In this document: one piece after another, positions 1,310 through 64,000 of the stretch
How positions within the stretch are numbered: position 1 is the stretch's first letter
How the letters are laid out: every line of letters begins with the position of its first letter
Source of the DNA: Moniliella sp. 'wahieum'
Lineage: Eukaryota
Assembly (NCBI GenBank): GCA_003971905.1
Contig: RSEE01000079.1
Location: 248,001 to 312,000, forward strand
Length of the DNA stretch: 64,000 nucleotides
Direction of reading: 5' to 3'
The notes under the pieces: model-generated
Databases searched by the model: none
Seen by the model: the letters and a program-made list of their open reading frames with translations, nothing else
What the model was told of the DNA's origin: nothing
Translations under genes and position numbers: made by a program

Positions 1310-1520
1310 GTCTAGTGAGTGCTAAGCGCAAGCTGAGCCTCGCTAGTGCTGCTCAGCCTGAGCGCAGTGACTAGTGACTAGCTCAGTGACTAGTGAGCCG
1401 CTCAGACGTACTGAGCTGAGCTTCAGCGCTGAGCCGCTGAGCGCTCGCGGTGATCGACGTTGATCGATGATCGACCCTCAGGCCCTGAGGCCTGAGGCTC
1501 AGCGCGCGCGCGCCTCGGCG
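1310..1520. repeat. Mosaic 7-nt-phased TNA/palindromic-hexamer cluster
   Basis: Adjacent blocks tgactag-tgactag, tcagcgc-tgagc, tgatcga-tgatcga and tgaggcc-tgagg (ACTAGT, AGCGCT, ATCGAT, AGGCCT, each plus one spacer base). Confidence 0.85.
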
Positions 1521-1543
1521 AGGCCCACCCAAGTCTTCAAGCA

Positions 1544-1794
1544 CTAGAAGACCACCGGGCCTACGGCCCGGTCAGCTGGGGCTTCCCCAGCTTGGTCCTT
1601 GGTGCACCGTCGCCACCGTAGCCACCGTTCCCCCGTCGCCACCTTAGCCACCTTTCCACTGTTCCACGCTGGAGGAATTTTATCACCCATGTGCATGGCT
1701 GAGCACGCGGGGGTGGGGTGCGCATTCCGCCCGCCAAACAAATAGGTAAGCATGACGTAAAGAAAAAAGGGGGTCTGCGATATAAAAAGGGAGA
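1544..1794 (-). mobile_element. Non-autonomous Helitron (about 250 bp), apparently complete
   Basis: On the minus strand it starts A|TCtccctttttatat and ends with hairpin ACCGGGCC-GTA-GGCCCGGT, then 6 nt, then CTAG|T. It sits in an AT dinucleotide with no TSD. Related copies at 14504, 22165 and 59872. Confidence 0.8.
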
Positions 1795-2073
1795 TGAAGT
1801 GGTGAGCACAAGTCTTCAAGCACGTCTGTGAAGCAGGGCCGGTCCACCCCCCTGGATAAGTTGGAGGTTACCCGTTTCCAGGGCAGCCAGCTGTTCATTT
1901 GTGTCCCCTCACGCGCGCGCCACGTCCCATCCTATTCATTACTGAGGTACTGCGGCCTGAGGTCAGGCCTGACTCAGGTCTGAGGGCCACAATTGCGTCG
2001 AATTTATTGCCGTGAATAGGGCAAAAGATGCGTCGAGGGCCCGAGCAGAGAGAAAGAAAAGAAGCTCAAGCGC

Positions 2074-3661
2074 TTAGCCAGCATGTGCTACAATCTCCGT
2101 CTGGAGCTTGCCGCCGGGGAAGGTGTGTTTCATCTGTTCCGGCAAAGCAAGCTCCGTAAACTCGTCCGACCCATTCTTGGGGACCGACACGTTGATTGCA
2201 GAGCACTTGGCCGTGACCAAGTCAACCTCAAGCGATTCAGCCGAGAGGTAAATCTGGCCCGAATCGCACCCATCAAGGAGAATGGTGGGCACCTTGCCAG
2301 TCACCTGCACCTCAAACGAGGGGGAGTGGGTGATATCGACAGATGCCACCACCGAGTCAAACACGAGCGAGAGCTTGGTGCACCCCACAATATTAATTTG
2401 GTTCACCTTGCCCTTGATCTGGATGGTAGATGAATTGCAATGGAAGATATTGACGGTATGGCCCAGTTCCGTGTCCTTAATGACGATGTTGCGTTCGTTC
2501 TCCTGGTTCTCCACGATCCACTTGTTCCCCTCTAGGGCCAAGACAGGTGGCTTCTTCGCTCGCAGTGAAGCTGGCTTAGAGGGTACCTTAGGCCGCGCAG
2601 AGCCATGCGGGTTGGAGCTGTCGGTGTGGCCGCGCAACTCGGGGTTCTTGTGGGTCTTCTGCGATTCGTCTACCTTCTTGAGTGCCTTGGTGATGCCCTC
2701 GCCCTTGTTCAATTGGGCAAAGACTGCGTCCATACCGCCAGCAGGTGCAGATGTCGCAACAGGGGGAGGAGGAGGGGGAGGCACGGGAGCACCAGGCGGA
2801 GCAGGGGCCGCAGGGGCAGGAGGAGCTCCATCACTTGTTCCGGGAATCTTAAACGATAACGCATCACCTCCCTTGGGGTTCCAAGCCAAACCAGTGGTGT
2901 GGTACTGCTTGACGTACGCCTGAAGTGCGGTGAGCACTGCAGCAAGCGCTCGGGTCCACTCAACATGGGTCTTGTCCGTGTCCTTAAACTCCTTGATCAC
3001 CCGGTTCGAGTAAAACTGCGCCGCATCCTTCATTTCCCCTACAAAGGGAGCAGGTTTGGGCTCAACAGCCACCCAACCCACAGCAGGAGCACCCTCTGAA
3101 ACAGCCGATAGATGATTGAACAGCTTCCGCTCCCCTCGATTTTTCTCTCGCACCTCAGTTGTAGCCATAACCGAGTCCTGCAACGGCCTGAGCAGCACTT
3201 CACACCCAGGTGTCGCAAATCCTCGGCCGGCTTCTTGCTCTCAGCAGCGATCCATATAAGTGCACGCTGCGCATCGAACGTCTTAGCAAAGTCACTCGCC
3301 TGGTCGGACACCAGCCCGCCAATCTGGTTACTGAGTTCGACAACTTGGCCAGCGGGTCCTTAATTGCTTCGTCGAAGGCTTCCACTGCCTTGGGTACCTC
3401 AGGCGCAGCAGGTTCGACAACCGGAGGGGGTGGGGGAGGGGGGGGAGGAGGAGGTGGGGCGCTGCCAGATGCAGCCACTGACGCAGCGGCCCCAGCAACC
3501 GCGCCAGCTGCGACAGCCGGTGCAGTGGAAGCCGCAACTGGCTGGGGGGCAGGGGGAGCACCAGCAGCCTGCGCCTCCGCCAGGTCCTCGAGACGGGAAG
3601 TGGCGGCTTCAAGGCGCTTGATGATCGTCGTCAGGTTTCCCAGAGGGGAAGGAGCGGCCAT
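2074..3661 (-). CDS. SRV2: Adenylyl cyclase-associated protein CAP/Srv2 (frameshifted in this sequence)
   Basis: N-terminal RLE motifs (IIKRLEAATSRLEDLA), AAQFYSNRV helical domain, polyproline tracts, WH2-like LKKVDESQKTHKNPELR and a C-terminal CARP domain. Spread over three ORF frames. Confidence 0.95.
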
Positions 3662-3982
3662 CGTGCGAGATGGGAAGCCAGAAGGGGGGTGTGGTGGTGG
3701 TTCACCTGTCAGAGACCTGCGCTTTGTGCGCTCAGGCCTCGCCTTGATGCGATCGATACGACCACCCCAGCGCAGGTTAGAGTGGCGCACTAATCGATCT
3801 CATCAGGTGCAGGGGCAGTGCCACGTGTGTGATGCAAGCCATCTTACGTGAGCATATCCATGAAATGTTCACGGCATACAGGCAAATATCAATTCAATCA
3901 AGATGAAAGCATGCTTCGCAAGTCCTTGTTTCACCGCCACCGCCTCCATCCCCTTCTCCTCCTCCTCATCTCCATATCCCAG

Positions 3983-8429: not shown

Positions 8430-9355
8430 GGTGGAATGGGCGAGCGGGTGGAGGGAGGAGAGGAGAAAAGAGGGGGGGGTGCGGAGCAATGGAGAAGGAA
8501 TACTACTCTTTTCTCGACGCGGGGGATAAAAGGCAGATGGTGCCAACCCTACCACAGCTTCTCTCTCGATCAGCTGAGGCCGCCAGACGTAGTCACAGGC
8601 CAGGGCGCGCCAGGTTTGGGTAGAGCCGGAGAGGTAGAATATAGAACTGAGGTGGAAGGCGACTAGCGACGAGATGTGAGATCATCTCGATCACGGTGTG
8701 ACTTTGCGCCCACCATCTGCCGCTTCATCTGGCCCGCAGCAGCACCAAAGCCGTCGAACGCCGGGAGTCCACAGCTGGCTGGCTCGCACTGTTCTCATAT
8801 ATCTCAGCTTGCGGGGCTCGGGCAGTCTGTAGCTGGGCCTTCTGTAGCTGATCCCCCGTGCTTCAAGCTTCAGCGAGCTCATGCTCTCCGACGAAAGCTG
8901 CTCAGGCTGATCGCGCTGAACAGGCTGAAGAAGCCCAGAGCGAGACGGAGGGAGAGGAAAAATCAATCTGTCACCCTGGTCCGTGCACTTTCAAAATGCG
9001 GAGGCACAGGGGCAGTGCACAAAATCTCTCCACTCCGGTACAATAGTTTGTCCTCGACCCAAATCCCATGCACACCTCCACCACGATGCCGGTGCTCGAG
9101 AAGATGAGATCCAAGATTGATCTGAGAGCAATCGACCATCTTGGCCACCACCCCGTCATGTGTGACAAAACGCGTCAACGCGCCCGCTTCAACGTGTTCT
9201 CAGCGTTTAATGTTTAACGTTCAATAATTCAACGTTCAACGTTCAATGTTTGCTTCTGTACTTAGTCCAGCCATATTTTGCCTTCAAGCCCCACAATTTC
9301 GTCTTCCCAGTACGCTTTTTTCATTCCCCCACTGAAGCTAAGAGAGGGCTCTGGT

Positions 9356-9609
9356 TGTTAGAGGGTACTGCTAGGGTTCTCCTGCGCGGCCCTCAATGGA
9401 TCGGTGACGCTCGCCTAGCCGAGCGGAAGCGTTCCGCTCGCAGGCCACGCACGCCCTGCTCGCTCCATCTCCCTTCTCTCTCTCCTTTCTCCTTCCCTTC
9501 AGACGTTGCTTGAAGACTTGTGGCTCACCACTTTGCCTTCACGCCTTGTCTGAAGGCTGCTTCGCAGCTGATCCATAGGATCGCGAGTGCTCCCAGTCGC
9601 ACTCTAGCA
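9356..9609 (+). mobile_element. Solo LTR, 254 bp (family A)
   Basis: TGTTAGAG...CTCTAGCA termini, a perfect 5-bp TSD CTGGT (9351-9355 and 9610-9614), and a near-identical inverted copy at 39955-40211. Strand assignment is arbitrary. Confidence 0.9.
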
Positions 9610-12934: not shown

Positions 12935-14460
12935 CGGGGGATAGGGAAAGGTGGTGTTGATGCAGATGATGCATGCGAGGGGGGAAAGGGTGATTATTAT
13001 GATGGACAGCCGCTGTGGCAAAAGAGTTGCGCCACAGGAACACTGATTGCCGGCACGGGATTTCAACTGTTCGAAAAAAGTGTTCTGTGGAACGCCGTCC
13101 CCACCTCACCGGGGCCTATATATACACCACTGTGCCCTTTGAACGTGATACTATCTAGTACACCTCTCAGCATAGATACCCAAACATCATCGCACGGAGA
13201 CCCTCAATCCACCCACTCCTCAAGTATACGACGTACCTTGGCCAATCCAACACCCAGTTTCAGCCGTTGAGGCGAAAGGGGCTCCCAACAACTTTTGATT
13301 ACACTAAACAAAAGCCACTCGATTGCAACGCCGCGGGTTGGCTGCAACGGAAAACGGCCAAGTCATGCTCATCTAAGATAGCGCGCACACAAAGAAGATG
13401 ATGCCTGTATAACCGAGGGCAAGCGCGCGCCTGGACAGGTACTGGGAGGAGATAAGGGCGTTCCCATCCAAAGGTGGGGACCTGAGGAGAGAACACAAAA
13501 TTGTCAGCATCCGCCATGTAGCGACGGAAGAGCTTTGTGCATCTCAGAGAAAAGATACTCGAGGTCCAAATGGGGCCATGCCCCTTCGGGCGATGTGAGA
13601 CTGACAATCAGGTGTTTTGGGAATGACAGACGACGCTGATCCTTAAGCGCCCCAAGATGGCTCATGATCGAGTCATCTCCCATTACTGGTTGCTAAAGAA
13701 AACATCCTAGGTCATCACTGGCTCGCGAGGATCTAGACCTGTTGGCCTTTCAACCAGCATGCAGTACTACTACACAATTACGGATGCGTGGTTGGCGACC
13801 GGGGGCTACAGGACAAAGCGTCATGCCGAGTCAGACAAAGGGGGTGCATTTGTGTGGCGAAGCCAATCTGCGCAGCAAGAAAGGTCAGTATGTCTTTGTA
13901 GACGAAAAAAGGAAGCAATTCAGTCGTGACCTGATTTCGCCCTCGCGGACGGTACACAAGCCGCCATGCGGGCACGGGCACCTCACCCTCAAGCCCCAGA
14001 ACAAACCAGATACGACGCTCAACGACTGCCCCGTTTGCTCCCGTTCCCCCCAACCCCAACATCCTACCCCCCCTCCCACTACCAAACCCCATCCTATAAA
14101 AAGAATGGGGCCCCATAGGGGAGTTGAATCGGCGCGGGGCCGGGCATCCTGGGCATCCACTGGGCAAGCGGACGAGTATTGTACCACAGTGCTCATTCAG
14201 AGCGAAGGAGAGGGCATGCCCACTGGTCGTGATTGTGAGGTAACCCCGCCGCTTCGACGGCTCTTCCTAAGTAGACGGCACGCCCCGTGGGGCTTGGTCA
14301 TCATCCAACGCCTAGGCAGACACTTACTGAGGAATGGTGGTGGTCGTCAGTTAAGTGTGGATGCAAGTGAAGAAAGAGAAGACGTGTGGTGTGGATGGCG
14401 GAAAAGGTGAAGGGGCGGAATGCGGTTGCCCCACTGATTTTCAACTTTGCCTAGTAGTGC

Positions 14461-14487
14461 ACTAGTCACTAGTCACTAGTCACTAGT
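14461..14487. repeat. (ACTAGTC)n heptamer array; more copies at 15122-15200
   Basis: ACTAGTC x3 plus ACTAGT, followed by tt(g/t)gagtta, which recurs twice in the 15122-15200 block. Confidence 0.9.
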
Positions 14488-14503
14488 TTGGAGTTATCAT
14501 ATA

Positions 14504-14655: not shown

Positions 14656-15399
14656 TAATATCACCGATACGCGCTGGCTGGGGTGGCTGGGATGGCTGGC
14701 TGCGCCCCGGTGGCTTGCAATGCTGATGTAAAAGAGTGGTGCACACCCCGTTTGGGATTCTAAATACCAGGGACGCACTCAAGAGCCGTTTTTCCCCCTG
14801 GTTTTGACGACGCGAGGATACTACGGCACCAAGACGGCGGGCAAGTTGTTCGCGCATTGGAAGGAGTTGGCTACTAAGTCTCAGTGGAAATGGTTCCTCG
14901 CTCGGATGTCAACCACGTTCCTCCGTGTCCACACGCGCTTCCTAGGGTATGGGACCGGATGGCGTGAGCCGGAGGGTCCTGATATCCTGGCGATCCCCCT
15001 GGTCCCTTGACCTGGTGGCGCCCCAAGTAACCCCCGCAAGATGAACGGTTAGGTTTAGACGTAGCGTTCCCCCTGTCCCAGCCTTAAGCTCTGTGAATGA
15101 AATGGACGTGGTCTAGAGATATCACTAGTCACTAGTCACTAGTCAAGCTAGTCACTAGTTTTGAGTTATCACTAGTCACTAGTCACTAGTTTTGAGTTAC
15201 TACTAGCGTATCATGGCGGGAGCTAGGGGGCCCTGACTGATTGTGCCACGGTGGGGACACCGTTGGCTCCCTGATAGACTTGAATGATTAATGATGGTAC
15301 ACGCTAAAGCACACGCCGGATGGACGCGATCTTGATAGGTTCAGCGTTTTCTTGCCCCTAAGTTTTGCAAATGCTAGGAAAGCTATACACGAATAGCTC

Positions 15400-20660: not shown

Positions 20661-20776
20661 GGCGTGCGCGCTGCTCTTCGCACCGCGCGGGCTTCGTGGT
20701 TGACGGGATTGGTCGAAGTTGAAGTTGAAGCGTGAAGGTTGTTGAACGCTGGGCTTCGGTTGAAGACGGGTTCAGT

Positions 20777-20821
20777 TGAACGTTGAAACTTGGAGCTTGA
20801 GGCTTGAAAATTGAAGCTTGA
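20777..20821. repeat. 7-nt TGA lattice upstream of SPT8
   Basis: TGA (once TGG) at 20777, 20784, 20791, 20798, 20805, 20812 and 20819, with fillers acgt, aact, agct, ggct, aaat, agct. Confidence 0.85.
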
Positions 20822-21536
20822 AGTTGAAGTCATTTGAACCTGAAATGTTAAAACTGCGGAAGCGAGGCCTGTGCGGCGGAACCGGCGATGCAGGCGGTTC
20901 GCTTCCGCAGCCGGGCGCACGCCAATGAACCAGATGCATGTCTGCACTCTGCTTCATTCTGATTGATGCACGCCGCCATGAGCGTGTGACGCACAAGCTC
21001 CTCCTCCCTGTATGCTTATGGGGCCAATGTGTGTGCAGCCATGAAATATCTCTCAACGATATCGGCGGAAAACTGCTACATCATCATGATCAATCCACAG
21101 TGAGGGGGCCTGCACGCGAGGGGGCCTGTACCGTGGCGCACACACCCGTCTCTTTCTTGACATCAAATTGCGGCCTAGACTTGAGTTCCACTTTGGTCCC
21201 CGACTCAGGCGTAGCCGGCACCACTCTCTGCTCCTCAACCATGCGGAGGATCTTCATCTCTGAGGATTTGTTGCGGGAGGTTGAAGAATGAAGATTCCTC
21301 GCTCTCCAGAGGCACATTTTGGTGCTCAGATGCCCTCGGTGCACCGTGCCTTGTCGTTCATACAATCAGGCCGACGCAGATGGTTTGATCGATATCACAT
21401 GGGAATCATCTCTGGCTACGTTCCCGCCGCTGGGCATGCCAGGATCACCAGGCCATGTCGCTTGATGGATGGTCCGTAAAAGCGCCCATCTTTGGTTTTG
21501 GCTCCCAGAAAAAGATGACGGAGGAGTGGGCAAAAA

Positions 21537-21887: not shown

Positions 21888-22500
21888 AGTGAGCGCTGAG
21901 CCTCAGCGCTGAGCGTCCGGGCGATAAGAGGGGACCGGTGATCCGGTGATCGGTGATGCGTATCACGCGTCACGCGTCACGCAGGATGGCGTGCGATTGG
22001 AGTAACCCTAAGGCATCGCCCCAACACATCCTCAGGCCCACTGCGTTTGCTGCTGCTCGCGCTCACATGTCGTAAGGCTTGCTTGTCGGACAGTCTCTAA
22101 CTATATCTTAGGCAGAGCTTAAGGCTGGGTTAAACGTTAAACGTTAAGCGCTAAGTGGTGGCCAAGATGGCGACGGTGGAACGGTGGTTACGGTTACCGG
22201 TTGGTTACTGGTTACGTTGATTACGGTGGCGACGGTGGCCCAGCACCCAAACCGGGCCGCAGGTCGTAGGCCAGGTGGTCTCCTCGGATGCAGTGTATCG
22301 CATTTGAATATTGAATGTTACACCACTGGATCACCAGTCACCGGTCACCGGTCACCCTAAGCCGTCACGCGTCACGCGTCGCATGCCACATGCAACGGAC
22401 GGGAACGCGGGAACGCGGGAACACTGTTTGAGATGGGAGATGGGAGAGCGGCCGGGTGCTGCGTGACCGCGTGAGCATGACGCGGGACCTGTGACCTCAC
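21888..22500. repeat. Mosaic heptamer clusters between tRNA-Asn and the MFS gene
   Basis: tgagcgc-tga, (tcacgcg)n, (taaacgt)2-taa, tgaatat-tga, and tcaccag-(tcaccgg)2-tca. Confidence 0.85.
22165..22286 (+). mobile_element. Degenerate Helitron 3' end
   Basis: ggcgacggtgg repeats, then a disrupted hairpin accgggccg..cgtaggccaggt followed by ggtctc-CTCG, matching the other family members. Confidence 0.6.
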
Positions 22501-25971: not shown

Positions 25972-26086
25972 TCACTCGTCACGCGTCACTAGTCACTAGT
26001 CACTAGTCACTGGTCCCTACTGCGAATGGACGATTGCCTCTGCGGGTCACTAGGGTCACTAGTCACTAGCTAGTCACTAGTCACTC
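25972..26086. repeat. 7-nt TCA lattice upstream of the Skg3/Caf120-like gene
   Basis: TCA at 25972, 25979, 25986, 25993, 26000 and 26007 with fillers ctcg, cgcg, ctag, ctag, ctag, ctgg. A second ACTAGT block lies at 26047-26086. Confidence 0.9.
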
Positions 26087-26146
26087 GTCCCAAGCGTGGC
26101 TGCCCAGCCCCGGGGCGGCAGTGCATCAGGCACGCTGCCGCCATAC

Positions 26147-34432: not shown

Positions 34433-35056
34433 CGTGACGAGGTGCGGGGAGAGCCTATAGTAGCCTTAAGTAATTGACGATGAGGGTGAAGAGAAGAAAA
34501 GGGAAAGGAGGGCGGAAGAGCCTCTCGAAGAGGGAGAAGTTGCTTTGGAGGGTTTTGGGGGAGTGGTTGTGAGTTAAAAAGTCGGACTGAGGTTGTGACA
34601 GTAAGAGAAGGAGGTGGACGGTCCTCTACTGTTGGTATATATAACCTACCACTCCCGTATATTATTTCTGGGAAGAGGCATCGGATCTGTGTTCGCAGGC
34701 CCCAGCAGCTTCAACCTGAGCCACCCCCAGGTGCCGCCACTACCGTACGTTCATGCTTGTGGTCATATTCAGATATTGCAGCGTCCCGCTGGTATAGGTA
34801 CCACCGACGGTGTTGCACATTTCCTATTACACTACGGCAGTGGGTAGGTACACGGACGCGATGTTGGAGCACCAACAGATCATCCGGGGCCCCAGTTTTG
34901 CCCGCTTCAAACTCTCCGCCTGCCTAATGCCCGTGTTGCAGAGGATGTGGGGGAACTATTCGCACCGCAGCCACACGTGGGTTCTGCTACGGCGAGGATG
35001 CTGTGACATGTGACAGAGCAGCAGTAGCAGGCAGTAGCCTGCTGTAGTACGGCACT

Positions 35057-36005
35057 GCGTGACGCGTGACGCGTGACGTGGGAGGCGGGTGGCCGGGGGT
35101 GTCTGGTGGTGCATGGTATCCAATGTAGGAAGAGCGGCAAGATGGAGCCATCCCGCAAGCGGCCGGGGTGGGTGGATGTGAATGTGGCTGTTTTCCCGGC
35201 CGAGGCCTTCGGCCTTAATGTTTAACCTAAAGCTTAAACATGCGTAACAGGTACCCCGGCCCGACTTGAAGCTTCAAGCTTCACTTCAAGCTTCACATGT
35301 TCACATCTCCCCAGTTGGCCAGTGTCGTGCTGTGTTTCACAAAGCCACGCATGCACCAGCAGCATGCGCCATATAACGCATCACGTGTTGTTCGGCATAG
35401 ACGGATGTCTCACTCAATCCGGCGGAGCACGCGTGCACACATTGCACCGGCAACCCGGCCGCAGCCATCGGATCATCGGCGATCATCAATCAATCATCGA
35501 TCAGCAGGTCAACGAATGCCGATTACACGTTACTTAGGCGACTTCGTGATCACGTTGATCACGCGGATCACGGCATAACAGCACCCACCATCAGCGGCGT
35601 TCCTTTTGGTTTCCAATTTGAGCCCTACACTTGGCAAGACTATGCACCACCTCCTTTCGAACACTGATGCTCAGCAACTCGTCCTCAATCTGCGTCTCCG
35701 CACACTTTTGGTGGTGAGCTCACTATAATGAAAAGTATTTTTGCTACAGTCGTGGCCAACATCAAACGTGGGTAGAAACAGGATGACTAGTGACTAGGTG
35801 ACTAGGGACTGGTGTACCCTGTGGCTTCAAGCTTCACCCTTCAAGCTTCACCGGTCACCTGCCACTCCATGGAGGGTCATCAATATCAATCTCTCGGCCA
35901 TCCGTCCCGCTGACGCGCTGAGTCCTGCTGAGCCTCGGGCCTCAGGCTGAGGGGTCTCATGGAGCTTGAAAGGCCTCGGCTTTATCCCGATACTCAAGCT
36001 TCATG
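35057..36005. repeat. Heptamer clusters upstream of the sugar porter
   Basis: (tgacgcg)2-tgacg at 35059, tgaagct-tcaagct-tca near 35267, tcatcga-tca near 35494, tgactag-tgactag near 35784, and tcaagct-tca at 35827 and 35841. Confidence 0.8.
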
Positions 36006-39639: not shown

Positions 39640-39700
39640 TAAAGGTTGAATCTTAAAGGTTGAAGGTTGAAGGTTCAGCCGATCATCGATCATCGATCAT
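39640..39700. repeat. 7-nt TNA lattice upstream of BOS1
   Basis: TAA/TGA/TCA at 39640, 39647, 39654, 39661, 39668 and 39675, then (tcatcga)2-tca. Confidence 0.85.
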
Positions 39701-39954
39701 TGGTCGCAGAGCATGCGTGTAACCAAGGGCTTACGCTTTGCAAGGCTGGGCTGCACCTGCTGCACCACCCCCCATCCAACCCCAGATTCGGTGGGGCGCG
39801 GGCGAATAGATGCGCAAAATCCGCCCCGCCTCGTCTGTCTCGATCATCGATGATCCGTCCATCACGTGCACCAGGCATTCCCTACGCGCCCGCCCTACTT
39901 CCCATCAACCCGATTGGCCTTATTGTAACACCTGAGGGCCTGAGGCCTGACTAG

Positions 39955-48211: not shown

Positions 48212-48590
48212 CACAGCGAAGAAGACAAAGAGCGCTGGTGGAGCGTGCTGGGGCCATAGGGAGGCCGACAAGGCAGGCAGCATGGATGCGACAGGGTGCT
48301 ACGTCCCGGTCAGGCCAATTTCGGGGAGCGAGGGAGGAAAATGTGGTGGTGGCAAGGACATGCTGCTGTTGGGGGGGGTGGTTGGTGGAGATGGTGTCCC
48401 GGATCTGCCGAGCAGTGCCGGGACAGCGAAAAGGGAAGAGCCAACGCCAACAACTTGGGACAGGGGCAGTGTCCATACGTCGCAAGGTTGCAACTTCAGT
48501 ACCCCAGCTGGCGGTGGCGCAAATGGTCCTGCGCGATGGTCAAAAAGGGGATCAGCCTGAGCCTGACAGCTTTCCTGTTGCGGCCCATTT

Positions 48591-48686
48591 TGAAATTTGA
48601 TCAGTGATCGATGATCATCGATCAGTGCTCGCTCAGCCTGAGCGCTGAGGCTCAGCTTCGGTCGATCATCGATCATCGATCACCGG
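48591..48686. promoter_or_regulatory. Heptamer lattice in the TOR/MLH1 divergent promoter, switching from TGA to TCA phase
   Basis: TGA at 48591, 48598, 48605 and 48612 on the TOR side; TCA at 48666, 48673 and 48680 on the MLH1 side; central tcagcc-tgagcgc-tgaggc-tca. A regulatory role is inferred from position only. Confidence 0.55.
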
Positions 48687-54304: not shown

Positions 54305-55700
54305 AGCTGAGCGATGATCGCCGATGCTGATGCTTAATGCATGATGCATGATGCTGCACACCAGCGTGGTGCGTTGCCAGGTGTTGCCACTCTGCGAAAG
54401 TACAGTGTTGTCCTGTGCCAGCATGCAGCGCTGCAGCACGACTACCAGCCAATGATCGATCACACACCATGCATTACCTTGCGTTGCCTTGGCTTGGCTG
54501 GCTTGGCTGGTGGCACCGAGCATCATGCATCACTCGAGTGTGGGAAATCTGTGAGATCTGAAAGCACTGATCAACGATTGGGGAAGCCACAGCCATGTGC
54601 TCAGGCCTCAGGCTCAGTGCCTCAGGCTCAGTCGCTCAGCGCTCAGGCGCTCAGGGCTTCAGGCGCAAGGTTAGACGGCACCTCTCACACTGGGATTTCA
54701 ACTACTAGCCCAGGCTAGCCCAGTGCCAGTCCCCAAGCTGCAGCCTTGCAGGTGGCGCAACCCAGCAGTGTGTCTGTCGGCGGGCCAGAGCACACCAGAG
54801 CTTTTTGCAGGCAAGGGGCGCACGCCACATCTGCCACACAAAAACACTCTCTCACTTTGAAATTTGATCTCAGATCTCAGATCATCGAGATCATCGATCA
54901 TCTCAGATCTCAGATCTCACTAGCCACTGGCGCTGCCAGCCACCCGCGCGCCCGCAGCCCGCCACTTTGCGTCTGGCCCAGGGACAAGGCCCAATATAAA
55001 ACCTAATCGACTAATCCATCTTGCAACACCCGTATTTCTCGGTTGAACCAGATGGCCCCTCGAGGGTTGTTGAACTTGAGCGTACCTTGAACGCTCCTTG
55101 AAGCTTGAATATTGAGCAGCTTGAATGTTGGAACGCTCAAGTTGAGTGCTCAGGCTGAGCCGCGCAAACGTTGGACCGCCGCGAACAGGTGGAGCTGGTG
55201 CTGGTCGTGTGGCACTACTATTGCGCCGTGGCACAGAGCACTCTCCGATCTCCTGACTGCGAGAGGGCCGGCCAGGGAGCCGTGGCCTCACCGGTGACCA
55301 GGGTAACTAAATGGTGCGGTCGCAATGATTTATGAGCGCTTGAGCGGGGGTACACTCGTTGCGAGTAGAACGTGGAGCGAAGAACGCAGCGGTGGCGACT
55401 AGTTGAATGGTGACTAGGTGGCTGCTAAAATTTAAAAGGTCACCGGTCAGTGACCAGTTACATGTTACATGTTACATGTGACAGTGACTGCATGATGCAT
55501 GACGCAATGACGCGTGACCGCGTGACCTCCCCGGAGTAGGGTCTGAGATCTGAAGGATCGATCTAAGATCTAAAGTGACATGCATGACAGTGACCGGTGA
55601 CCGGTGACCCTGAAGCCTGGAGCTTGAAGCTTGAAGCTTGAAGCTTCAAGCCTCAGGTCAGGCCTCACATGTCACATGTCACAGCGAGGCCTGAGCGGAA
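54305..55700. repeat. Densest series of mosaic heptamer clusters
   Basis: (tgatgca)n, (tcaggcc/tcagcgc), (tcagatc)n, (ttacatg)3, (tgaccgg)2, (tgaagct)3-tca and (tcacatg)2. Confidence 0.9.
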
Positions 55701-56381
55701 TTGCGGCCACCAACCACATCCATTCGGCAACTCTGACGCCGGTGGCTTGGCACCCAGCATCCCCAACAGCATCCCCTCAGTGCCCTCTAATTATTGTGGC
55801 TACAACAGCTCAGGACCGGGGTGCGGAAGCACAGGAACAGTGTCTGCCCAAGTGGCCATCAGTCCTCTGCATGCCTCGCTCAGCACTCTGGTAGCACATC
55901 CGACCATCGCTGGTGCCGGTGAGCCGAGCGGAGAAGAAAGGCCGGAGGCGCTGGGGGGGCATCAGGTGCATCAGGCCTTGGCCTTATTAGACCGTAGGAA
56001 CTTTCCGTCGCAGCGAGCACAGTAAGATTGTTCCAGCAGAATAGGCCATTTCTCGGGTTGTGACATGTGATCGGTCATAGATCTGTTTGGTGTGTATAGC
56101 CCGTTGTGGCAACTTGAAGCTTGAAGTTTGATGCGCGGGACCACCGGACCCTTCTGGGCTATTTCGATTTCAACGCTGGCGAAGAATCGCCAGATATAGC
56201 CAAAATGCTATCGGTTGAACGTTGAACCTCAACAACGCTCAACCAACTCGTTGAAGGTTGAGGCCGTTGAACGTTGAGGTTTGTCCGTTGACATCAACGT
56301 TTACCGTCAACGCAACGGTTGAGGACATTGAGGCGTTTCTGAGCCACCCGGTGGCTCGTGCTTTGGCCAATGTCCCTGTAT

Positions 56382-59121: not shown

Positions 59122-59472
59122 TGTGACGGGCGAACGCTGGCTGACGAGCCGGCAGAGCGCGCCGATCCCCTGTCCAGTCCTCAGGCTCTTGTATTCGTGC
59201 GAGCTAACGTTGGGAGGCAGGCCAACGGAGCTCTTACCCTCGCCCAAGTCCCAGAAGAGGCGAACATTGGCTGGCGGGCCAACAGCGCCTCTACCTCCTC
59301 CGTTTCCCTGCTCCCAAGATGGCTTTGGCTCGCACCCCCGACGTTCGAAGGAAGGAGGGGCGTGCCGAGCATCCAAGTACCCAATCCCTGTTCCAAGTCT
59401 GGTCTGCCGTGAGTAAACTTTAGGATCTCCAAGGCATTGTACCCCTAAACCCCCGGGTGTCCCCCTTTGACA
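59122..59472 (+). mobile_element. Probable solo LTR (family B-related, 351 bp)
   Basis: TGTGACGG...TTTGACA termini, flanks TCGGT and TAGGT (4/5 TSD match), and three degenerate internal repeats aac(g/a)ttgg..gcc. Confidence 0.6.
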
Positions 59473-59871
59473 TAGGTTCTCTTGTCTGGGATTCATGCCT
59501 AGAGAAACTCCTGATTCCCATTGTGCCTGACCCCGGCTTTCTCATTGTGCTGTTGTACCAATAATGGTATTATGGTCTCCTCTCATCAGCACCACATTTA
59601 CCCAATAACTGTTCCAGAGATAGTGTGTGCCCGCCCCCTCCATACACTATGCAGGGCATTATTTTTTCCCTCCAAGACTCATCAGAGTCCGGCCTCATGG
59701 ACAACCAAATCTCTATTCTGTAACCATATCATTGACAGAGCATAAGGCTGGTACAAAGAGACGTTGAGACTAAACCGATCCGTTCATCGAACCGGCGAGT
59801 GTTGCTTGTTAATAGCGCCAACCCCATTTAGAGAACCAAGGGAAGACCCTCAGGCCTGAGCCTCAGGTGCT

Positions 59872-60267
59872 AAAAGAGACCACCCTTTTACTTGACGTAA
59901 AATCTGACGGCAGCATGCCACCTGGCACCTTTAGTGCACCCGCATGCAGTGTATGGCTGAGAAAATTCCTCCAGCGTGGAACGGTGGACCGGTGAACGGT
60001 CGCTACAGTGGCGATGATGGAACCATCGCTCACGTACCCACTCTGTTCTTCTCTCCGTCTCCCTCCCCCCCTCTATCTACCAGTCCGTTGAGGACTCCGC
60101 TGAATGAACGGCACCTAGCACTTCCCCTAATAGCCCGCGGTGGCGACGGTAGCGACGACGGAACCGTGGAACAGTGGTGGCCACGGTGGCAACCGTGGCC
60201 CGCGCCCAGCACAACAAGCTGGGACGAAGCCCCAGCAGACCGGGCCGTAGGCCCGGTGGCCTCCTAG
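59872..60267 (+). mobile_element. Non-autonomous Helitron, 5' end truncated
   Basis: Shares aaaattcctccagcgtggaac and gaagccccagc with the 1544 copy. Ends with hairpin ACCGGGCCGTAGGCCCGGT-ggcctc-CTAG|T. Confidence 0.8.
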
Positions 60268-61396
60268 TATATATTTTTCAGGCCTCTAAGGCCTCACTCA
60301 TCCTAAACTGACGAAGGATTCTCCTCCACACCCTCTTCCTTAAAAAAACTTCATGGAGAATTGCCGATTGCCATTCTTCCACTGCAGCACGTCTTTTTGA
60401 CGGTCATTATTCCTCTCTGGTGTCCCTTTTTGTTGCTACCACCCGACCCACTGTTGCAATGGTGACTAGATTCACCGGTCCCGTTAAGCTCTTTCGGCCT
60501 CACAGCCTCCGAGGCTCCGCGGGCTCCGAAGTTTGGTAGCCCGTGTGTATAGCCTGGTAAGCTAGCGACCAATATAGTAGTTGTTCTGGAGTCCTACTCT
60601 CGTCCTCCCGTTTGCCACCAAAAAGTCCCCATCTCTGACCCGCAATCGGTCGTCTAATAATAAACACTGTCCTATACGCTCAGCATTCATTGCGGTCTCC
60701 ATTATCCGAGCGAGTGGATCGGGACGTCGCTGCACCTCTGTGTGATCTTCATTCTTATTCTTCCGCATATCGACAGCAATATCTTGACCCCTCGCTGAGC
60801 AGATAATCGATCATTCTCGCATACAGACGGCCATGACATGCATGACATGATTGAGGCATGATGCACATGATAATGCATGAATGTGAACGTCAAAATACTT
60901 GGACCACATCATTTTATGCGCCTCTCAACAGGATTATGTTATAGTAACTTTTGGCTGTTCAAAGTAATGCGTTCTCCCGACTCGTTTACCTGCAGCCTTC
61001 ATTCCCTTACGCCACCATGCATAAATCTCGCTGATGATGCACTGATGCAGGGTGTAAGAAAACCACCGATGAAAGTAATAAAACCTGCAGAGAGCCGTCA
61101 TCGCGTCATAATCGATTCGATCTCCCTCATTCCGGCCTCATTCCTCTGCTCGCTCGCGCACTCAGGCCTGTGCCTCAGGCCTCATCCCGATCGTTAACAA
61201 CCAGAATAGGGCATCCAACAGCAACGATGGCTAAGTAGTTTATACGAATCCGTACAACATTTGTAAAACGGATAGGAGAGGGAGCATATGGCACGAATGC
61301 TAGCAAGAAATGTGTTCTCATATGTGTTGGTATTAATAGAAAAGGTCAGTTTCTTTTCCGAAAACAAAAATGGGATAACATGGTCGAAACATGGTT

Positions 61397-61511
61397 CATA
61401 GCTAATCGAAATGCTGGTTACAAGGTTCGGATAGATATGTGAGTACTACGTACAAAATTCAAGGTGGGCAAGGCCCACAAGATTGTGCGCAAGAAATTTC
61501 GATTAGCTATG
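61397..61511. mobile_element. MITE copy 1 (115 bp, 16-bp TIR)
   Basis: Perfect TIR CATAGCTAATCGAAAT...ATTTCGATTAGCTATG, near-identical to 63338-63454. TSD not evident. Confidence 0.8.
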
Positions 61512-62675
61512 AGTTATGATCCCTCCCCCCCTCCCGGTGCCTTCATCAACATCCCATAGTACCCGCCTCCATCATGCATCACTTTCGCCTTCACCCCTTT
61601 CGATCAGCTCATGTCGCCCTTCCCCGTGTTTCATTTCGAGCATGTTAAACACGGTCTTCCTTTCGGTAACCGGTAAACGGTAAACGCCATTAGTATGCAG
61701 TACTTGCAATACCGTCACACGTCATGCATCATGTGCGACATGTGACATCACACGTCACTGTCCCTGGTCATTTATTTCCATCACACGGCGCGGTGGTGGT
61801 TCCGCATATATCACGCCACGACGAGAAATGTCATTAAGGTCGGGTGAAATACAAAGCCAAGAATTGTGGACTGCAAGTGATGGTTGAAAGCGCATTCCAG
61901 CATGTGTCGGACTATAATACAGTAGACGCGCATAACCCTACTAATTGTATTGTCCACATCTGAGGCCAACATTGGCTGTCATTTTATTTACTTTTCGCTG
62001 CACCCGCGATTCTGGCAAATATCCACCGTCTTGCATTCGTGACAGGGAAACTCTGCGCTTACCAGAAGCGCCTGACCATTGGTGTCCTCGATCCTACAGG
62101 ATACCCCAACCTCCACAGACTGTTTCGGGCCTGTGATGCATGATGCATTGATGAAGCCTGAGGCCGACGGTGAGGCCGTGGGGTCTGGGGCCTGAGTCAT
62201 GTGACACAGTACTCCATAATATAATGCCACGCTATACGCACAAAAAAGTCAGGTGTCTACAGCTCCCGCGGTGGAAATCCATCTGGTATCTATAAACATC
62301 ATATTGCCTTCCGTCTATAGCTCCGATCAATCTTTAGTTCCGACACCGAAAAATGAGGATATGTCCTGGAAGCATGACATCTTGGGTACATGTGGCATGT
62401 GATATACGACTCTACTAACTAATATTCTACTTGAAGCTTGATTAGAAAGTACCAAGTATAGCGAAGTCACTAGTCACTAGTTGTTACTAGCCGTGGTTGC
62501 TATCACATGCCATTAAAAGCGTCATTGTGTGGGGAAACGACGACCAGTTACATGTTACGACAGCGGCCACCGTCAGGTAACGGTCGGCCTTTGGCCATAC
62601 TATCACTGGTATCACCATAGTTTGCATAATCACTATCATTTAATCTCGGATCCTCAGACTACACCTGCTGCACAG

Positions 62676-62906
62676 GACTTCAAGCTTCAAGCTTCAAGCT
62701 TCACAGTAACTAGTAACAGTTAAAATAGCCACAATGATAGTCAGGAGTTAGTCCAGCTTCAAGCTCTTCAAGCTTCCAGCCTCAAGGTAGTCAGTAGAGT
62801 CAGCGATATTTATTTTTGTCCCTGTTGAGAACGTGTTGAACTTCAAGCTTCAAGCTTCAAGCTTCAACGTTGAACGTTGAACGTTGACCCCCGTGACCGC
62901 GTGACC
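62676..62906. repeat. AAGCTT/AACGTT heptamer arrays with phase-preserving switch
   Basis: TCA at 62843, 62850, 62857 and 62864, then TGA at 62871, 62878 and 62885. The filler changes from agct to acgt without loss of phase. (tcaagct)3 also occurs near 62680. Confidence 0.9.
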
Positions 62907-63337
62907 CGGGGGCGGGTTACGCGTTGCGGGTTTTGCCTGCGGTATAAGATTACTTAAATTAACGTTTTTAACCCCAAAGCGACATGTGAGTCTCCGGTGC
63001 TTCCCTGAGCCCGAGGCCTGAGCTCTTGAGATCTGGTATGGCATTCGTGCATCATTAATCATTAATCATTTTTCATGCTCAAGACAGGGACAAAGAAAGG
63101 CTCTGCTCCTATTACCGGAGGGCTCACTCATCCGAGACGTGTGTGCTGCTATTATATCCTAGTTCGTGCCAGCTCCCAATCCACAGGAGAGACCAGCGAA
63201 TGAGTTCGGCCGCAGGTCTGGACCCTCTGGCTCCCGCCATTCGCTTCCAAACCGGATGTAGCGCGACCCCGTACGAATGAGCGTGGCACACATGTGCGCG
63301 ATCGATGAACTACATGATGAACCATAGTATATCTACA

Positions 63338-63454
63338 CATAGCTAATCGAAAATGCTGGTTACAAGGTTCGGGATAGATATGTGAGTACTACGTACAAAA
63401 TTCAAGGTGGGCAAGGCCCACAAGATTGTGCGCAAGAAATTTCGATTAGCTGTG
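63338..63454. mobile_element. MITE copy 2 (CMC/EnSpm-like termini)
   Basis: CATAGCTAATCGAAA...TTTCGATTAGCTGTG, flanked by CA on both sides (possible 2-bp TSD). Confidence 0.8.
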
Positions 63455-63639
63455 CAGGATCTGAGATCTGAAGTTGTTATAGCTGTAGTTAGTAGTTAGT
63501 GGTTGCTAGTTATTAGTTACTATAGTTACCCTAGTTACCCGAAGTACCACCACTATACTTCCTTTGGTAGCTATAGTTGGGTCTTAGGCGTTGGGAGGTC
63601 TGTGGCAAAGGCACCTGAGCCTGAGGGTGACCGGCGACA

Positions 63640-63990
63640 TCGGATGCCATGCATCATGCACCATGCACCATGCACCATGCAGTTTCATGTGACGACGGTG
63701 ACCGCTGATATTATGACAGAGCGGTGACAATCACATGTCACATGTCATCATGCATCATACATCATGCATCCTGTGACCTGTGACGTGGTGATCCATTCTG
63801 GCGTACCATGTACCACAGCAAACGTTTATAGCACTTGGTACCTTGGTAGCCATCCGCGATTCTTGCGCTCTGATGGTGCCTGTCACAAATGTCAGGCCCT
63901 GAAGCCCCGAGGCCTGACTGGGAGCCTCAGGCCTGTAGCCTCAGGCCTCAGGCCGGTCAAGCTTGCTTCAAGCTTCCAGCTTCAATGCAT
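63640..63990. repeat. Heptamer clusters at window end
   Basis: atgcatc-(atgcacc)3, (tcacatg)2-tcatcatgca, (tcaggcc)n and tcaagct. Confidence 0.8.
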
Positions 63991-64000
63991 CGAGACTGCG

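What the first reader, a model, noticed from the sequence alone, without database searches (positions are those of the whole stretch)
1310..63990. Intergenic 7-nt T-N-A lattice built from almost every ANNNNT palindrome
Seen: more than 25 short clusters, all non-coding and none noticed inside the identified CDSs. TCA or TGA (sometimes TTA/TAA) recurs exactly every 7 nt, and the 4-nt filler varies but is usually self-complementary. The resulting hexamers are ACTAGT, AAGCTT, AGGCCT, ATCGAT, ACGCGT, ATGCAT, ACATGT, AGATCT, ACCGGT, AACGTT, AGCGCT and ATTAAT (about 63053), plus single units of AATATT (about 22306) and AAATTT (48593). That is 14 of the 16 possible A....T palindromes. Palindromes starting with C, G or T were not seen in such arrays. 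Phase is kept while filler and orientation change (25972-26013, 20777-20821, 62843-62887), so the invariant is a grammar, not one satellite sequence, and ordinary slippage does not explain it. Inference: either sites for a factor reading TNA half-sites at 7-nt spacing, or the scar of a dedicated DNA-processing mechanism. From memory, Ustilago maydis has intergenic TCACGA-type heptamer repeats; a relationship is unverified.
Basis: partly seen in the sequence, partly recalled or inferred. Interest (0 to 1): 0.9.

Follow-up and report, generated by a model that had tools for sequence, protein, structure and literature searches.

The report
Palindromic TNA heptamer lattice, fungal intergenic DNA
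The spacers between genes of this smut-related fungus are peppered with short 7-base repeats built on one strict rule (T-any-A plus a 4-base palindrome), and their fine structure looks like piled-up repair scars of a cut-and-paste DNA enzyme rather than ordinary repeat slippage or protein-binding sites.

Summary
TCA/TGA recurs at lag 7 199 times against 76±8 in shuffles (z=15). 116 of 199 four-base fillers are palindromes (about 12 expected), and 14 of the 16 possible palindromes occur. 45 of 61 exact period-7 arrays are odd palindromes centred on T-N-A, and none is centred on A-N-T, C-N-G or G-N-C.

The lattice avoids long ORFs and fills about 6% of ORF-poor DNA, on both the 5' and 3' sides of genes. 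The host is an unsampled Ustilaginomycotina lineage.

The new finding is the smallest unit. It is not a 14-base duplication but a 12-mer, nnTNA + revcomp(nn) + nnTNA: 140 observed against 0.3 simulated, and 0 for other centre triplets. The filler copies an adjacent flank in 103 of 116 cases.

This is the signature of a 7-bp staggered target centred on TNA plus hairpin-derived P-nucleotides, as in hAT/Transib/RAG-type excision footprints. Arrays would then grow by repeated events or by slippage. Transposons with 7-bp target duplications (hAT7, Kyakuja) are reported in Basidiomycota, but no transposase or matching element lies in this window.

Rivals are hairpin-aided slippage and regulatory site arrays. 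My literature searches found no description of this lattice.

The parts
1366..1498 (.). Cluster downstream of the CAP-like gene: two-unit arrays with fillers CTAG (1366-1381), TCGA (1461-1474) and GGCC (1484-1498), plus a 12-mer at 1385-1396
9205..9246 (.). TTA/TCA + ACGT lattice, with an exact run at 9228-9246
14460..14487 (.). Four units of TCA+CTAG. The first unit is degenerate (GCA)
15122..15206 (.). TCA+CTAG arrays with one irregular 6-nt filler (AGCTAG), inside a 31-nt local duplication
20775..20829 (.). Degenerate TGA lattice in one phase, with fillers ACGT, AACT, AGCT, GGCT, AAAT and AGCT
21890..22447 (.). Intergenic zone with a mirror 12-mer (21890-21901), three units of TCA+CGCG (21963-21982), TAA+ACGT (22129-22147), TCA+CCGG (22337-22356) and TCA+CGCG (22363-22380)
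25972..26013 (.). Mixed array in one phase with fillers CTCG, CGCG, CTAG x4 and CTGG.
26044..26089 (.). TCA+CTAG array containing a doubled filler, TCA-CTAG-CTAG-TCA (26063-26076), and a 6-nt filler CTAGGG
35002..35078 (.). Two units of TGA+CATG and three units of TGA+CGCG
35228..35295 (.). TAA/TGA/TCA + AGCT lattice with a 12-mer at 35284-35295
35784..35859 (.). TGA+CTAG, then TCA+AGCT, then TCA+CCGG in phase. Includes 12-mers at 35839-35850 and, in mirror form, 35848-35859
39680..39950 (.). Three units of TCA+TCGA (39680-39700) and two units of TGA+GGCC (39937-39950), on the 3' side of the TOR-like gene
48589..48682 (.). Lattice in the spacer between the TOR-like gene (minus strand) and the MLH1-like gene (plus strand): 12-mers at 48589-48600, 48605-48616 and 48613-48624, and three units of TCA+TCGA at 48662-48682
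54335..54919 (.). TGA+TGCA, TCA+GGCC/GCGC (including 6-nt variants with a 3-nt filler GGC) and TCA+GATC/TCGA arrays
55097..55683 (.). Densest zone, with 18 hits in 55288-55681 alone. Fillers are AGCT, ATAT, AATT, CCGG, CATG, TGCA, CGCG, GATC and GGCC. TGA switches to TCA at a 16-bp perfect palindrome around 55640. Includes 8-nt variants TGAC+pal4
56059..56303 (.). TGA+CATG 12-mer (56059-56070), two units of TGA+AGCT (56113-56126) and a TGA+ACGT lattice
61570..61733 (.). Isolated 12-mers (61570-61581; mirror 61722-61733) and a TAA+CCGG/ACGG lattice
62430..62887 (.). TGA+AGCT 12-mer (62430-62441), TCA+CTAG (62465-62481), TCA+AGCT x4 (62678-62703), and TCA+AGCT x4 running in phase into TGA+ACGT x3 (62841-62887)
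63051..63954 (.). TCA+TTAA x3 (63051-63070), TGA+GATC x2 (63458-63471), TCA+CATG/TGCA (63731-63758) and TCA+GGCC (63938-63954). A variant array CCA+TGCA x4 lies at 63655-63681

Best explanation
The lattice is a mutational deposit, not a designed sequence. Each unit is the repair scar of a staggered, hairpin-forming DNA break at a 7-bp target nnTNAnn. This is the chemistry of cut-and-paste transposases of the hAT/Transib/MULE/RAG type.

Inferred sequence of events:
- An element inserts with a 7-bp target-site duplication centred on T-N-A.
- On excision, both flanks are sealed as hairpins.
- Host nucleases open each hairpin 2 nt from its tip. The double-stranded part of each end then stops exactly at TNA, and each end carries a 4-nt self-complementary overhang (xy y'x') copied from its own outer two bases.
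- End joining keeps one overhang.
- The net result is +7 nt: TNA, a 4-nt palindrome templated by one flank, then TNA.

Once a site is itself a palindromic heptamer, the two overhangs are identical and cohesive. Every further visit then adds one perfect unit. A visit at the last TNA of an array makes a new palindrome from the neighbouring unique dinucleotide, still in phase. Replication slippage probably adds to array growth.

What is shown: the grammar, the 12-mer minimal element, flank templating, TNA exclusivity and exclusion from ORFs.

What is inferred: the hairpin/P-nucleotide chemistry, the 7-bp stagger, and the involvement of a transposase or transposase-derived nuclease. No such gene or element was seen in this window.
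For: (a) Minimal element. Among 91 TNA-pal4-TNA elements with the same N, the period-7 identity run peaks at 5-7 nt (5: 20, 6: 15, 7: 13) and not at 3. Of the 46 elements with a run shorter than 7, 33 extend by at least 2 nt on one side only, against about 5.6 expected by chance. The classes are (2,0) 12, (0,2) 6, (2,1) 6, (1,2) 3 and (3,0) 6. The element is therefore nnTNA + revcomp(nn) + nnTNA. Its 7-nt-shorter ancestor is nnTNA plus unrelated flank, so the 2-nt inverted copy was made de novo.

(b) These 12-mers are not decayed 14-mers. In the 12 (2,0) rows printed, the second base after the last TNA matches the expected base in 0 of 12. In the 6 (0,2) rows the corresponding base matches in 1 of 6.

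(c) An unbiased scan for 5-nt repeats at distance 7 with a P-type spacer found 16+10+1, against 1.8+1.9+0.1 in Markov-1 simulations. In 12 of the 16, 6 of the 10 and the 1 'both' case, TNA sits at the end of the repeat away from the new palindrome.

(d) The 12-mer architecture scores 140 for TNA, against a mean of 0.32 (maximum 2) in 50 Markov-3 simulations. It scores 0, 0 and 0 for ANT, CNG and GNC centres.

(e) The filler equals the inverted copy of the left flank only in 41 cases, the right flank only in 25, both in 37 and neither in 13, out of 116. The 13 are about the chance background.

(f) N is copied along with the unit. Concordant centres number CC 63, GG 41, AA 9 and TT 3, out of 140.

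(g) There are 7 in-phase junctions between different palindromic fillers, and 3 of them differ at both base pairs.

(h) Junctional variety resembles end joining: one doubled filler CTAG-CTAG, 3-nt fillers GGC and GCC (20 cases) and 5-nt fillers such as GGCCC.

(i) Only period 7 and only spacer length 4 are affected, which points to a fixed enzyme geometry.

(j) Literature precedent. hAT, Transib, RAG and a MULE make flank hairpins that host nucleases open, and end joining then leaves footprints (PMC5499845, passages read). Ac/Ds excision in Candida albicans leaves P-nucleotide palindromes centred at the transposon border (PMC5873905, passages read). hAT7 families in rust fungi and Kyakuja in Laccaria make 7-bp target duplications (PMC12730594, passages read).
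Against: - No transposase domain was found in any stop-to-stop ORF of at least 100 aa in the window.
- No element is flanked by a TNA trinucleotide duplication with inverted termini, and none is flanked by a 7-bp nnTNAnn duplication with inverted termini (only lattice self-matches turned up).
- The target sequences of hAT7 and Kyakuja could not be read. They are in a figure, and the supplement held only consensus sequences. A TNA-centred target for a 7-bp family is therefore undemonstrated.
- The density is about 140 units in 64 kb, and arrays reach 4-5 units. This needs very many visits, strong re-targeting, or help from slippage.
- The array-boundary register test was not decisive: exact arrays start and end in several registers.
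- Thirteen exact 14-mers occur in all registers, as slippage would give.
- Junctions with discordant centres (TCA-pal4-TGA 8, TGA-pal4-TCA 4) are not predicted by the model.
- The 8-nt variants carry an extra C or T after TGA. This is not the base that a 3-nt P-tract would add.
- GTAC is absent as a filler despite 175 available ACTNA sites, which is unexplained.
- There are no population or read data, and only one 64-kb window.
Confidence: 0.5

Rival explanations
1. Hairpin-assisted replication slippage. Quasi-palindromic heptamers loop out as mini-hairpins (2-bp stem, TNA loop), escape loop repair and expand. Template switching within quasi-palindromes then converts mutated fillers into new perfect palindromes. 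No site-specific enzyme is involved.
For: - Arrays are pure in the middle and degenerate at the edges.
- Chain lengths fall off roughly geometrically: 85, 23 and 3 chains with 1, 2 and 3 added units.
- Thirteen exact two-unit arrays occur in all registers.
- Intergenic DNA here is generally rich in short tandem duplications (138 Tandem Repeats Finder rows).
- One-off intermediates lie between palindromes in one array: CTCG and CTGG between CTAG and CGCG at 25972-26013.
- That palindromic loops escape mismatch repair in yeast is recalled knowledge, not checked here.
Against: - Duplication cannot produce the 12-mer, because its ancestor lacks the inverted dinucleotide.
- 33 of the 46 short elements have exactly this form, and they are not decayed 14-mers (0 of 12 and 1 of 6, rows).
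- Structure alone predicts CNG, GNC and ANT centres and periods 5, 9 and 11 as well. Observed counts are 0, 0 and 0 for those centres, and no excess at those periods.
- Non-palindromic fillers are scarcely in excess. The surplus over background at lag 7 is almost entirely palindromic, so intermediates are rare.
- In-phase neighbours differ at both base pairs in 3 of 7 cases.
Confidence: 0.2
2. Selected cis-elements. The arrays are binding sites for a factor that reads T-N-A at 7-bp spacing, or structural elements: cruciforms, hairpins in transcripts, or all-frame stop-codon arrays (TGA/TAA falls in all three frames every 21 nt).
For: - The location is strictly intergenic, on both promoter and 3' sides of genes.
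- T and A are invariant at a fixed spacing.
- TNA-pal4-TNA is a symmetric site for a homodimer (inference).
- TGA half-sites recall homeodomain and bZIP sites (recalled, not tested).
Against: - 15 different fillers are used, and the filler is dictated by the neighbouring flank. That is a copying rule, not a recognition rule.
- Orientation (TCA or TGA on a given strand) switches in blocks, with no relation to the neighbouring genes that I could see.
- Edges decay like neutral DNA.
- Selection for stop codons would not need palindromes, and would include TAG.
- No conservation data are available.
Confidence: 0.08
3. Footprints of elements with a 3-bp TNA target duplication (PIF/Harbinger type) that leave two terminal bases from each inverted end. 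These bases are automatically palindromic.
For: - 7 = 3 + 4.
- TNA is the target type recalled for PIF/Harbinger and IS5-like elements.
- Canonical Harbinger elements make 3-bp target duplications (PMC12730594, passage read).
- Tc1-type footprints that retain terminal bases are recalled precedent.
Against: - The filler follows the flank in 103 of 116 cases, not a transposon terminus.
- 15 filler types would need about 15 families with different termini.
- The minimal element predicted is a 10-mer with no flank match. Only 6 of 46 short elements look like that, which is about chance.
- No TNA-flanked inverted-repeat element lies in the window.
Confidence: 0.04
4. Sequencing or assembly artefact, for example basecalling errors in repeats.
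For: No read-level data could be obtained for this window.
Against: - The arrays are short, diverse, exact and obey a rule that involves their unique flanks.
- Arrays with the same grammar and other fillers occur in independent metagenome contigs.
Confidence: 0.02

Closest known systems
Excision footprints with P-nucleotides of hairpin-forming cut-and-paste elements (hAT such as Ac/Ds, Transib, a MULE; V(D)J coding joints)
   Same: A direct duplication of the target flanks a short palindromic insertion whose axis lies at the former break. The palindrome is templated by the adjacent flank. There is junctional variety: trimmed, doubled or extended fillers. The mechanism is documented in PMC5499845 and PMC5873905 (passages read).
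   Different: - The scars here are not isolated. They pile into phased arrays that make up about 6% of ORF-poor DNA.
- The net gain is always 7 nt, with a fixed T-N-A core and a 4-nt palindrome.
- The recalled hAT target pattern (8 bp, nTnnnnAn) does not fit.
- No element or transposase was seen in the window.
hAT7 and Kyakuja transposons of Basidiomycota, which make 7-bp target-site duplications (PMC12730594)
   Same: They are cut-and-paste elements with 7-bp target duplications in the same phylum. hAT7 groups with Ac and Tam3, whose chemistry makes flank hairpins (passages read).
   Different: They are reported from rust fungi (hAT7) and from Laccaria and other Agaricomycotina (Kyakuja), not from Ustilaginomycotina. 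Their target sequences were not readable to me. Kyakuja chemistry is unknown. No homologue was found in the window's ORFs.
Microsatellites or short tandem repeats formed by replication slippage, including hairpin-prone repeats
   Same: Head-to-tail arrays of 2-5 identical short units in non-coding DNA, with degenerate edges.
   Different: The motif set is restricted to one grammar: TNA centre, 4-nt palindrome, period 7 only. The smallest elements are not duplications.
TNA-centred odd-palindromic targets of DDE transposases and restriction enzymes (IS10 NGCTNAGCN, PIF CWCTTAGWG, CC^TNAGG, GC^TNAGC; all recalled from memory)
   Same: They share the symmetric form xyTNAy'x', as expected for a dimeric enzyme that cuts around a central base.
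   Different: Those enzymes specify the outer bases. Here the outer bases are free and are made complementary by copying. Stagger lengths also differ (9, 3 and 3 nt).

Membership tests
Hairpin-type (hAT/Transib/MULE/RAG-like) excision footprint | A short direct duplication of the target flanks the scar | tested here: met
   A 5-nt direct repeat at distance 7 is the modal minimal element. The net gain is 7 nt.
Hairpin-type (hAT/Transib/MULE/RAG-like) excision footprint | Palindromic (P) nucleotides templated by the base pairs next to the break | tested here: met
   The filler is the inverted copy of an adjacent flank dinucleotide in 103 of 116 cases. The 12-mer architecture scores 140 against 0.32 simulated.
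Hairpin-type (hAT/Transib/MULE/RAG-like) excision footprint | Junctional diversity typical of end joining (trimming, both overhangs kept, added bases) | tested here: inconclusive
   There is one doubled filler, and there are 3-nt GGC/GCC and 5-nt GGCCC-type fillers. However, the 8-nt variants do not carry the predicted extra base.
Hairpin-type (hAT/Transib/MULE/RAG-like) excision footprint | A resident element or transposase with the matching target duplication | tested here: not met
   No transposase Pfam domain was found in the 224 ORFs of at least 100 aa. No TNA- or nnTNAnn-flanked inverted-repeat element was found. Only 64 kb could be searched, and no genome is held.
hAT7 / Kyakuja (7-bp target duplication, Basidiomycota) | 7-bp target-site duplication | tested here: inconclusive
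   The net +7 and the symmetric nnTNAnn model fit a 7-bp stagger. A 5-bp duplication plus 2 P-nucleotides gives the same product.
hAT7 / Kyakuja (7-bp target duplication, Basidiomycota) | Homologous transposase, or termini of the family | not testable with these tools
   The whole genome is not available. No homologue lies in the window's ORFs.
Slippage microsatellite | Tandem identical units | tested here: met
   45 exact TNA-type arrays of 2-4 units.
Slippage microsatellite | New units arise by copying an existing adjacent unit | tested here: not met
   The minimal 12-mers contain a de novo inverted dinucleotide and only 5 duplicated bases.
Slippage microsatellite | No dependence on a specific core motif | tested here: not met
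   TNA 45, ANT/CNG/GNC 0 among period-7 arrays. The 12-mer architecture scores 140 against 0, 0 and 0.
PIF/Harbinger-type footprint (3-bp TNA duplication plus terminal bases) | The scar sequence derives from transposon termini and is independent of the flank | tested here: not met
   The filler follows the flank in 103 of 116 cases.
Transcription-factor site array | Invariant half-sites at a fixed spacing | tested here: met
   T and A are invariant at 7-nt spacing.
Transcription-factor site array | Positional conservation or factor binding | not testable with these tools
   No related genome, expression data or binding data are available.

The most novel reading that the evidence does not exclude
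A fungus runs V(D)J-like chemistry genome-wide. A transposase-derived (hAT- or RAG/Transib-like) nuclease, possibly domesticated and working without a mobile element, repeatedly breaks intergenic DNA at nnTNAnn. Hairpin opening and end joining then write a growing lattice of palindromic heptamers. The cell may use this lattice, for example as recombination, chromatin or termination elements. The lattice would be the first known genomic 'tape' of P-nucleotide scars, and it appears to be shared by other Basidiomycota.
Probability: 0.12. Interest if true: 0.92.

Novelty: new variant of a known kind. Interest (0 to 1): 0.72.

Why it matters
If these units are excision or break scars, about 6% of this fungus's ORF-poor DNA is a readable record of one enzyme's activity, including its target (nnTNAnn), its stagger (7) and the host's hairpin-opening offset (2).

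That would show that transposon footprints can seed and build a whole class of microsatellite-like arrays. It would give a sequence-only assay for hairpin-type transposition and end joining in fungi. It would also explain why the spacers of an otherwise compact, transposon-poor genome look 'cryptically simple'.

The same grammar in unrelated fungal metagenome contigs suggests the process is widespread in Basidiomycota and has been overlooked. Most microsatellite surveys, such as the one listed whose abstract defines motifs as 1-6 nt, stop below 7.

If slippage is the cause instead, the strict TNA and period-7 rule would itself be an unexplained property of replication or repair.

Tried and rejected
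- Whole-genome access: none is held.
- Public sequencing runs for 54001-64000: none was listed, and no RNA holder was listed. Read-level checks and read laying were therefore not done.
- Earlier notes of this scan: nothing by place, words or sequence.
- Codon-usage gene map: too weak to separate coding from non-coding DNA, so it was replaced by an ORF-length proxy plus Pfam hits.
- Search for MITE-like elements with a TNA duplication or a 7-bp nnTNAnn duplication: only chance hits or lattice self-matches.
- Array start/end register test meant to separate the models: not decisive.
- Idea that non-palindromic period-7 arrays are P-less footprints: 7 of 14 contain TNA, which is not above chance (about 36% expected), so this was dropped.
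- A long P-tract as the origin of TCA/TGA switch points: the predicted adjacent TNA-TNA was not present at the examples read.
- tRNA and Rfam scans: only one tRNA, and no RNA family on the arrays.
- tblastn and blastn of the window against the metagenome loci: no orthologous locus.
- Literature: six searches for a description of such repeats found none. The Fusarium mitochondrial 'palindromic microsatellite' paper (PMC7218506, passages read) concerns something else.
- Supplement of PMC12730594: it holds consensus sequences, not target sites. bioRxiv supplements are closed.

Full report
**Source and limits.**
The window is nuclear DNA of a fungus of the Ustilaginomycotina. Its CAP/Srv2 protein is at best 59% identical to those of Ceraceosorus, Tilletiaria and Sympodiomycopsis, and 57% identical to those of Ustilago species. 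Other genes include TOR-, MLH1-, SPT8-, DEAD-box- and Ras-like genes and sugar/MFS transporter genes. No whole genome is held, no sequencing run was listed, and this scan has no earlier notes on it. Everything below therefore rests on 64 kb, plus metagenome contigs fetched once.

- TCA/TGA recurs at lag 7 199 times, against 75.9±8.2 in 100 dinucleotide shuffles (z=15). Harmonics appear at lags 14 and 21.
- TTA/TAA shows the same relative excess.
- Of 199 TSA-N4-TSA fillers, 116 are palindromes (about 12 expected). 14 of the 16 four-base palindromes occur. GTAC never occurs, although 175 ACTNA sites are available in ORF-poor DNA. TATA occurs once, with TAA/TTA.
- Among spacer lengths 0-12, only length 4 is palindrome-enriched.
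- Of 61 exact period-7 runs of two or more units, 45 are odd palindromes xyTNAy'x'. None has an ANT, CNG or GNC centre. Periods 5, 6 and 8-11 show no such class.
- TNA-pal4-TNA occurs 140 times, against 9.8±3.0 in Markov-3 simulations.

**Location.**
- Stop-free ORFs of at least 150 aa cover 50% of the window but hold only 9 of the 140 hits. Those 9 are mostly singletons or lie at ORF edges.
- The lattice covers 871 of 14,046 bases (6.2%) where no ORF of at least 100 aa exists.
- It lies on both sides of genes. For example, 48589-48682 sits between the upstream ends of the TOR-like gene (minus strand) and the MLH1-like gene (plus strand). 1117-1498 lies downstream of the CAP-like gene, and 39680-39950 lies downstream of the TOR-like gene.
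- Orientation (TCA or TGA on the plus strand) changes in blocks within one spacer.

**The smallest unit is a 12-mer, not a duplication.**
For each TNA-pal4-TNA with the same N, I measured how far the period-7 identity extends. Among 91 elements the histogram peaks at 5-7 (5: 20, 6: 15, 7: 13), not at 3 (only 6).

Of the 46 elements with identity shorter than 7, 33 carry an extension of at least 2 nt on one side only; chance would give about 5.6. The element is therefore nnTNA + revcomp(nn) + nnTNA, or its mirror image.

Removing any 7 bases from it leaves nnTNA followed by unrelated flank. The inverted dinucleotide was therefore created in the event itself.

These are not decayed two-unit arrays. 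In the printed rows, the next-but-one flank base agrees with the lattice in 0 of 12 left-type and 1 of 6 right-type cases (rows).

An unbiased scan for any 5-nt repeat at distance 7 whose 2-nt spacer forms a palindrome with the adjacent copy found 27, against about 3.8 expected. In 19 of them TNA lies at the far end of the repeat.

The architecture scores 140 with TNA, against a mean of 0.32 in simulations. It scores 0, 0 and 0 with ANT, CNG and GNC.

Over all 116 same-N hits, the filler is the palindrome of the left flank dinucleotide only in 41, of the right only in 25, of both in 37 and of neither in 13.

**Model.**
The simplest symmetric process that yields exactly this is as follows:
- a 7-bp staggered target nnTNAnn, duplicated on insertion of a cut-and-paste element;
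- excision leaving covalently closed hairpins on both flanks;
- hairpin opening 2 nt from the tip, so that each duplex end stops at TNA and carries a 4-nt self-complementary overhang made from its own outer dinucleotide;
- end joining that keeps one overhang.

The net gain is 7 nt: TNA, a 4-nt palindrome, TNA.

The model explains several features:
- why any palindrome is allowed yet complementarity is near-perfect (it is copied, not recognised);
- why T and A are fixed (target specificity);
- why N is copied along the array (concordant centres in 116 of 140);
- why left- and right-templated forms both exist;
- why only period 7 and filler length 4 occur;
- why a new, unrelated palindrome can start in phase at the end of an array (7 junctions, 3 of them differing at both base pairs);
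- why a doubled filler (CTAG-CTAG at 26063-26076) and trimmed or extended fillers (GGC, GCC, GGCCC) occur.

At a site that is already a palindromic heptamer, the two overhangs are identical and cohesive, so each further event adds one perfect unit.

A 5-bp duplication plus two P-nucleotides gives the same product. The data do not separate the two versions.

**Precedent in print.**
- Flank hairpins opened by host nucleases and joined with footprints are described for hAT, Transib, RAG and a MULE (PMC5499845, passages).
- Ac/Ds excision in Candida albicans leaves P-nucleotide palindromes centred on the bases next to the element (PMC5873905, passages).
- 7-bp target duplications are reported for hAT7 families of rust fungi, which group with Ac and Tam3, and for Kyakuja of Laccaria (PMC12730594, passages). 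Their target sequences are in a figure I could not see, and the supplement held consensus sequences only.

**What does not fit or is missing.**
- No transposase domain lies in any of the 224 ORFs of at least 100 aa.
- No element in the window has a TNA or nnTNAnn duplication and inverted ends.
- The density, and arrays of up to 4-5 units, need many revisits or amplification by slippage.
- Thirteen exact 14-mers occur in all registers, and array edges are degenerate, as slippage would give.
- The model does not predict the centre-discordant junctions (12 of the 140 TNA-pal4-TNA hits), the 8-nt TGAC/TGAT variants, or the absence of GTAC.

I therefore put the scar model at 0.5, with slippage as a likely helper in array growth.

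**Rivals.**
- Pure hairpin-aided slippage (0.2). It explains growth but not the 12-mer, the TNA exclusivity or the single period.
- Regulatory or structural arrays (0.08). They do not explain flank-templated fillers.
- A 3-bp TNA duplication plus retained terminal bases (0.04). The flank dependence contradicts it.
- Artefact (0.02). This is unlikely given the rule's dependence on unique flanks and its presence in other assemblies.

**Elsewhere.**
Most carry only that array.

Six loci (L047, L011, L079, L087, L090, L118) carry further arrays with other TNA+palindrome units nearby. These include in-phase switches: TAA+ACGT into TGA+AGCT in L011, and AAGCTT+C into TTA+TCGA in L047.

With the matched arrays masked, the 12-mer architecture scores TNA 28 against ANT 6, CNG 11 and GNC 6 in 449 kb.

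A kinase fragment on L047 has Laccaria bicolor proteins as its nearest named relatives, at 46-49% identity. This is a weak hint that Agaricomycotina share the process. None of the loci is orthologous to the window.

**Novelty.**
Six full-text searches found no description of TNA-centred palindromic heptamer arrays in fungi. Subscription-only papers are not covered. The microsatellite survey listed defines its motifs as 1-6 nt, so it would not have counted heptamers. I classify the finding as a new variant of a known kind: excision or break scars with P-nucleotides, here accumulating into a genome-wide phased lattice.

Noticed in passing
window 1532-1690 (+), 14492-14660 (+), 22214-22289 (-), 59953-60272 (-): A dispersed repeat of about 150-300 bp occurs in four copies, each next to heptamer arrays. 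It has a conserved GC-rich hairpin-like core followed by CCACCGT-type 8-9-nt repeats. Its nature is unknown: it could be a promoter module, a small non-coding gene or a transposon remnant.
   Followed up: partly
window 9368-9573 and 39991-40196: An inverted pair about 265 bp long is 97% identical over 206 nt and contains a CT-rich tract. One copy abuts a TCA+GGCC array. No terminal inverted repeats or target duplication were seen.
   Followed up: partly
window 61397-61512 and 63338-63455: Two copies (99% identical) of a MITE-like element of about 115 bp, with perfect 15-bp terminal inverted repeats and CA...TG ends. The target duplication is unclear, at most 2 bp. The right flank of copy 2 runs straight into a TGA+GATC array. 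This is the only sign of a cut-and-paste element in the window.
   Followed up: partly
window, whole: GTAC never serves as filler (0 of 140) and TATA serves only once. Both tetramers are at or above expectation in the window overall (206 and 157 occurrences), and ACTNA sites are available (175). Unexplained.
   Followed up: partly
window 63655-63681; 21935-21957; 55511-55527: Variant arrays break the rule by one base yet still expand. They are CCA+TGCA x4 (T replaced by C in every unit) and the 8-nt units TGAT+CCGG and TGAC+CGCG.
   Followed up: no
window 21537-21622 (-): A single tRNA gene of 86 nt (Rfam 54 bits). ARAGORN could not name the anticodon, so it probably contains an intron.
   Followed up: no
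window 11214-11234 and 50521-50538: A G21 run and a C18 run, flanked by partly complementary sequence (inverted pair I8).
   Followed up: no
window 25493-25834 (+): A weak Pif1 helicase 2B-domain match (E=3.6e-5) in an ORF just upstream of the 25972-26089 arrays. It could be a fragment of the cellular PIF1 gene or a Helitron-type helicase remnant.
   Followed up: no
window 28265-28426: Imperfect repeats of 12, 18 and 30 nt inside a long plus-strand ORF (27867-28892). They look like coding low-complexity repeats, unrelated to the lattice.
   Followed up: no
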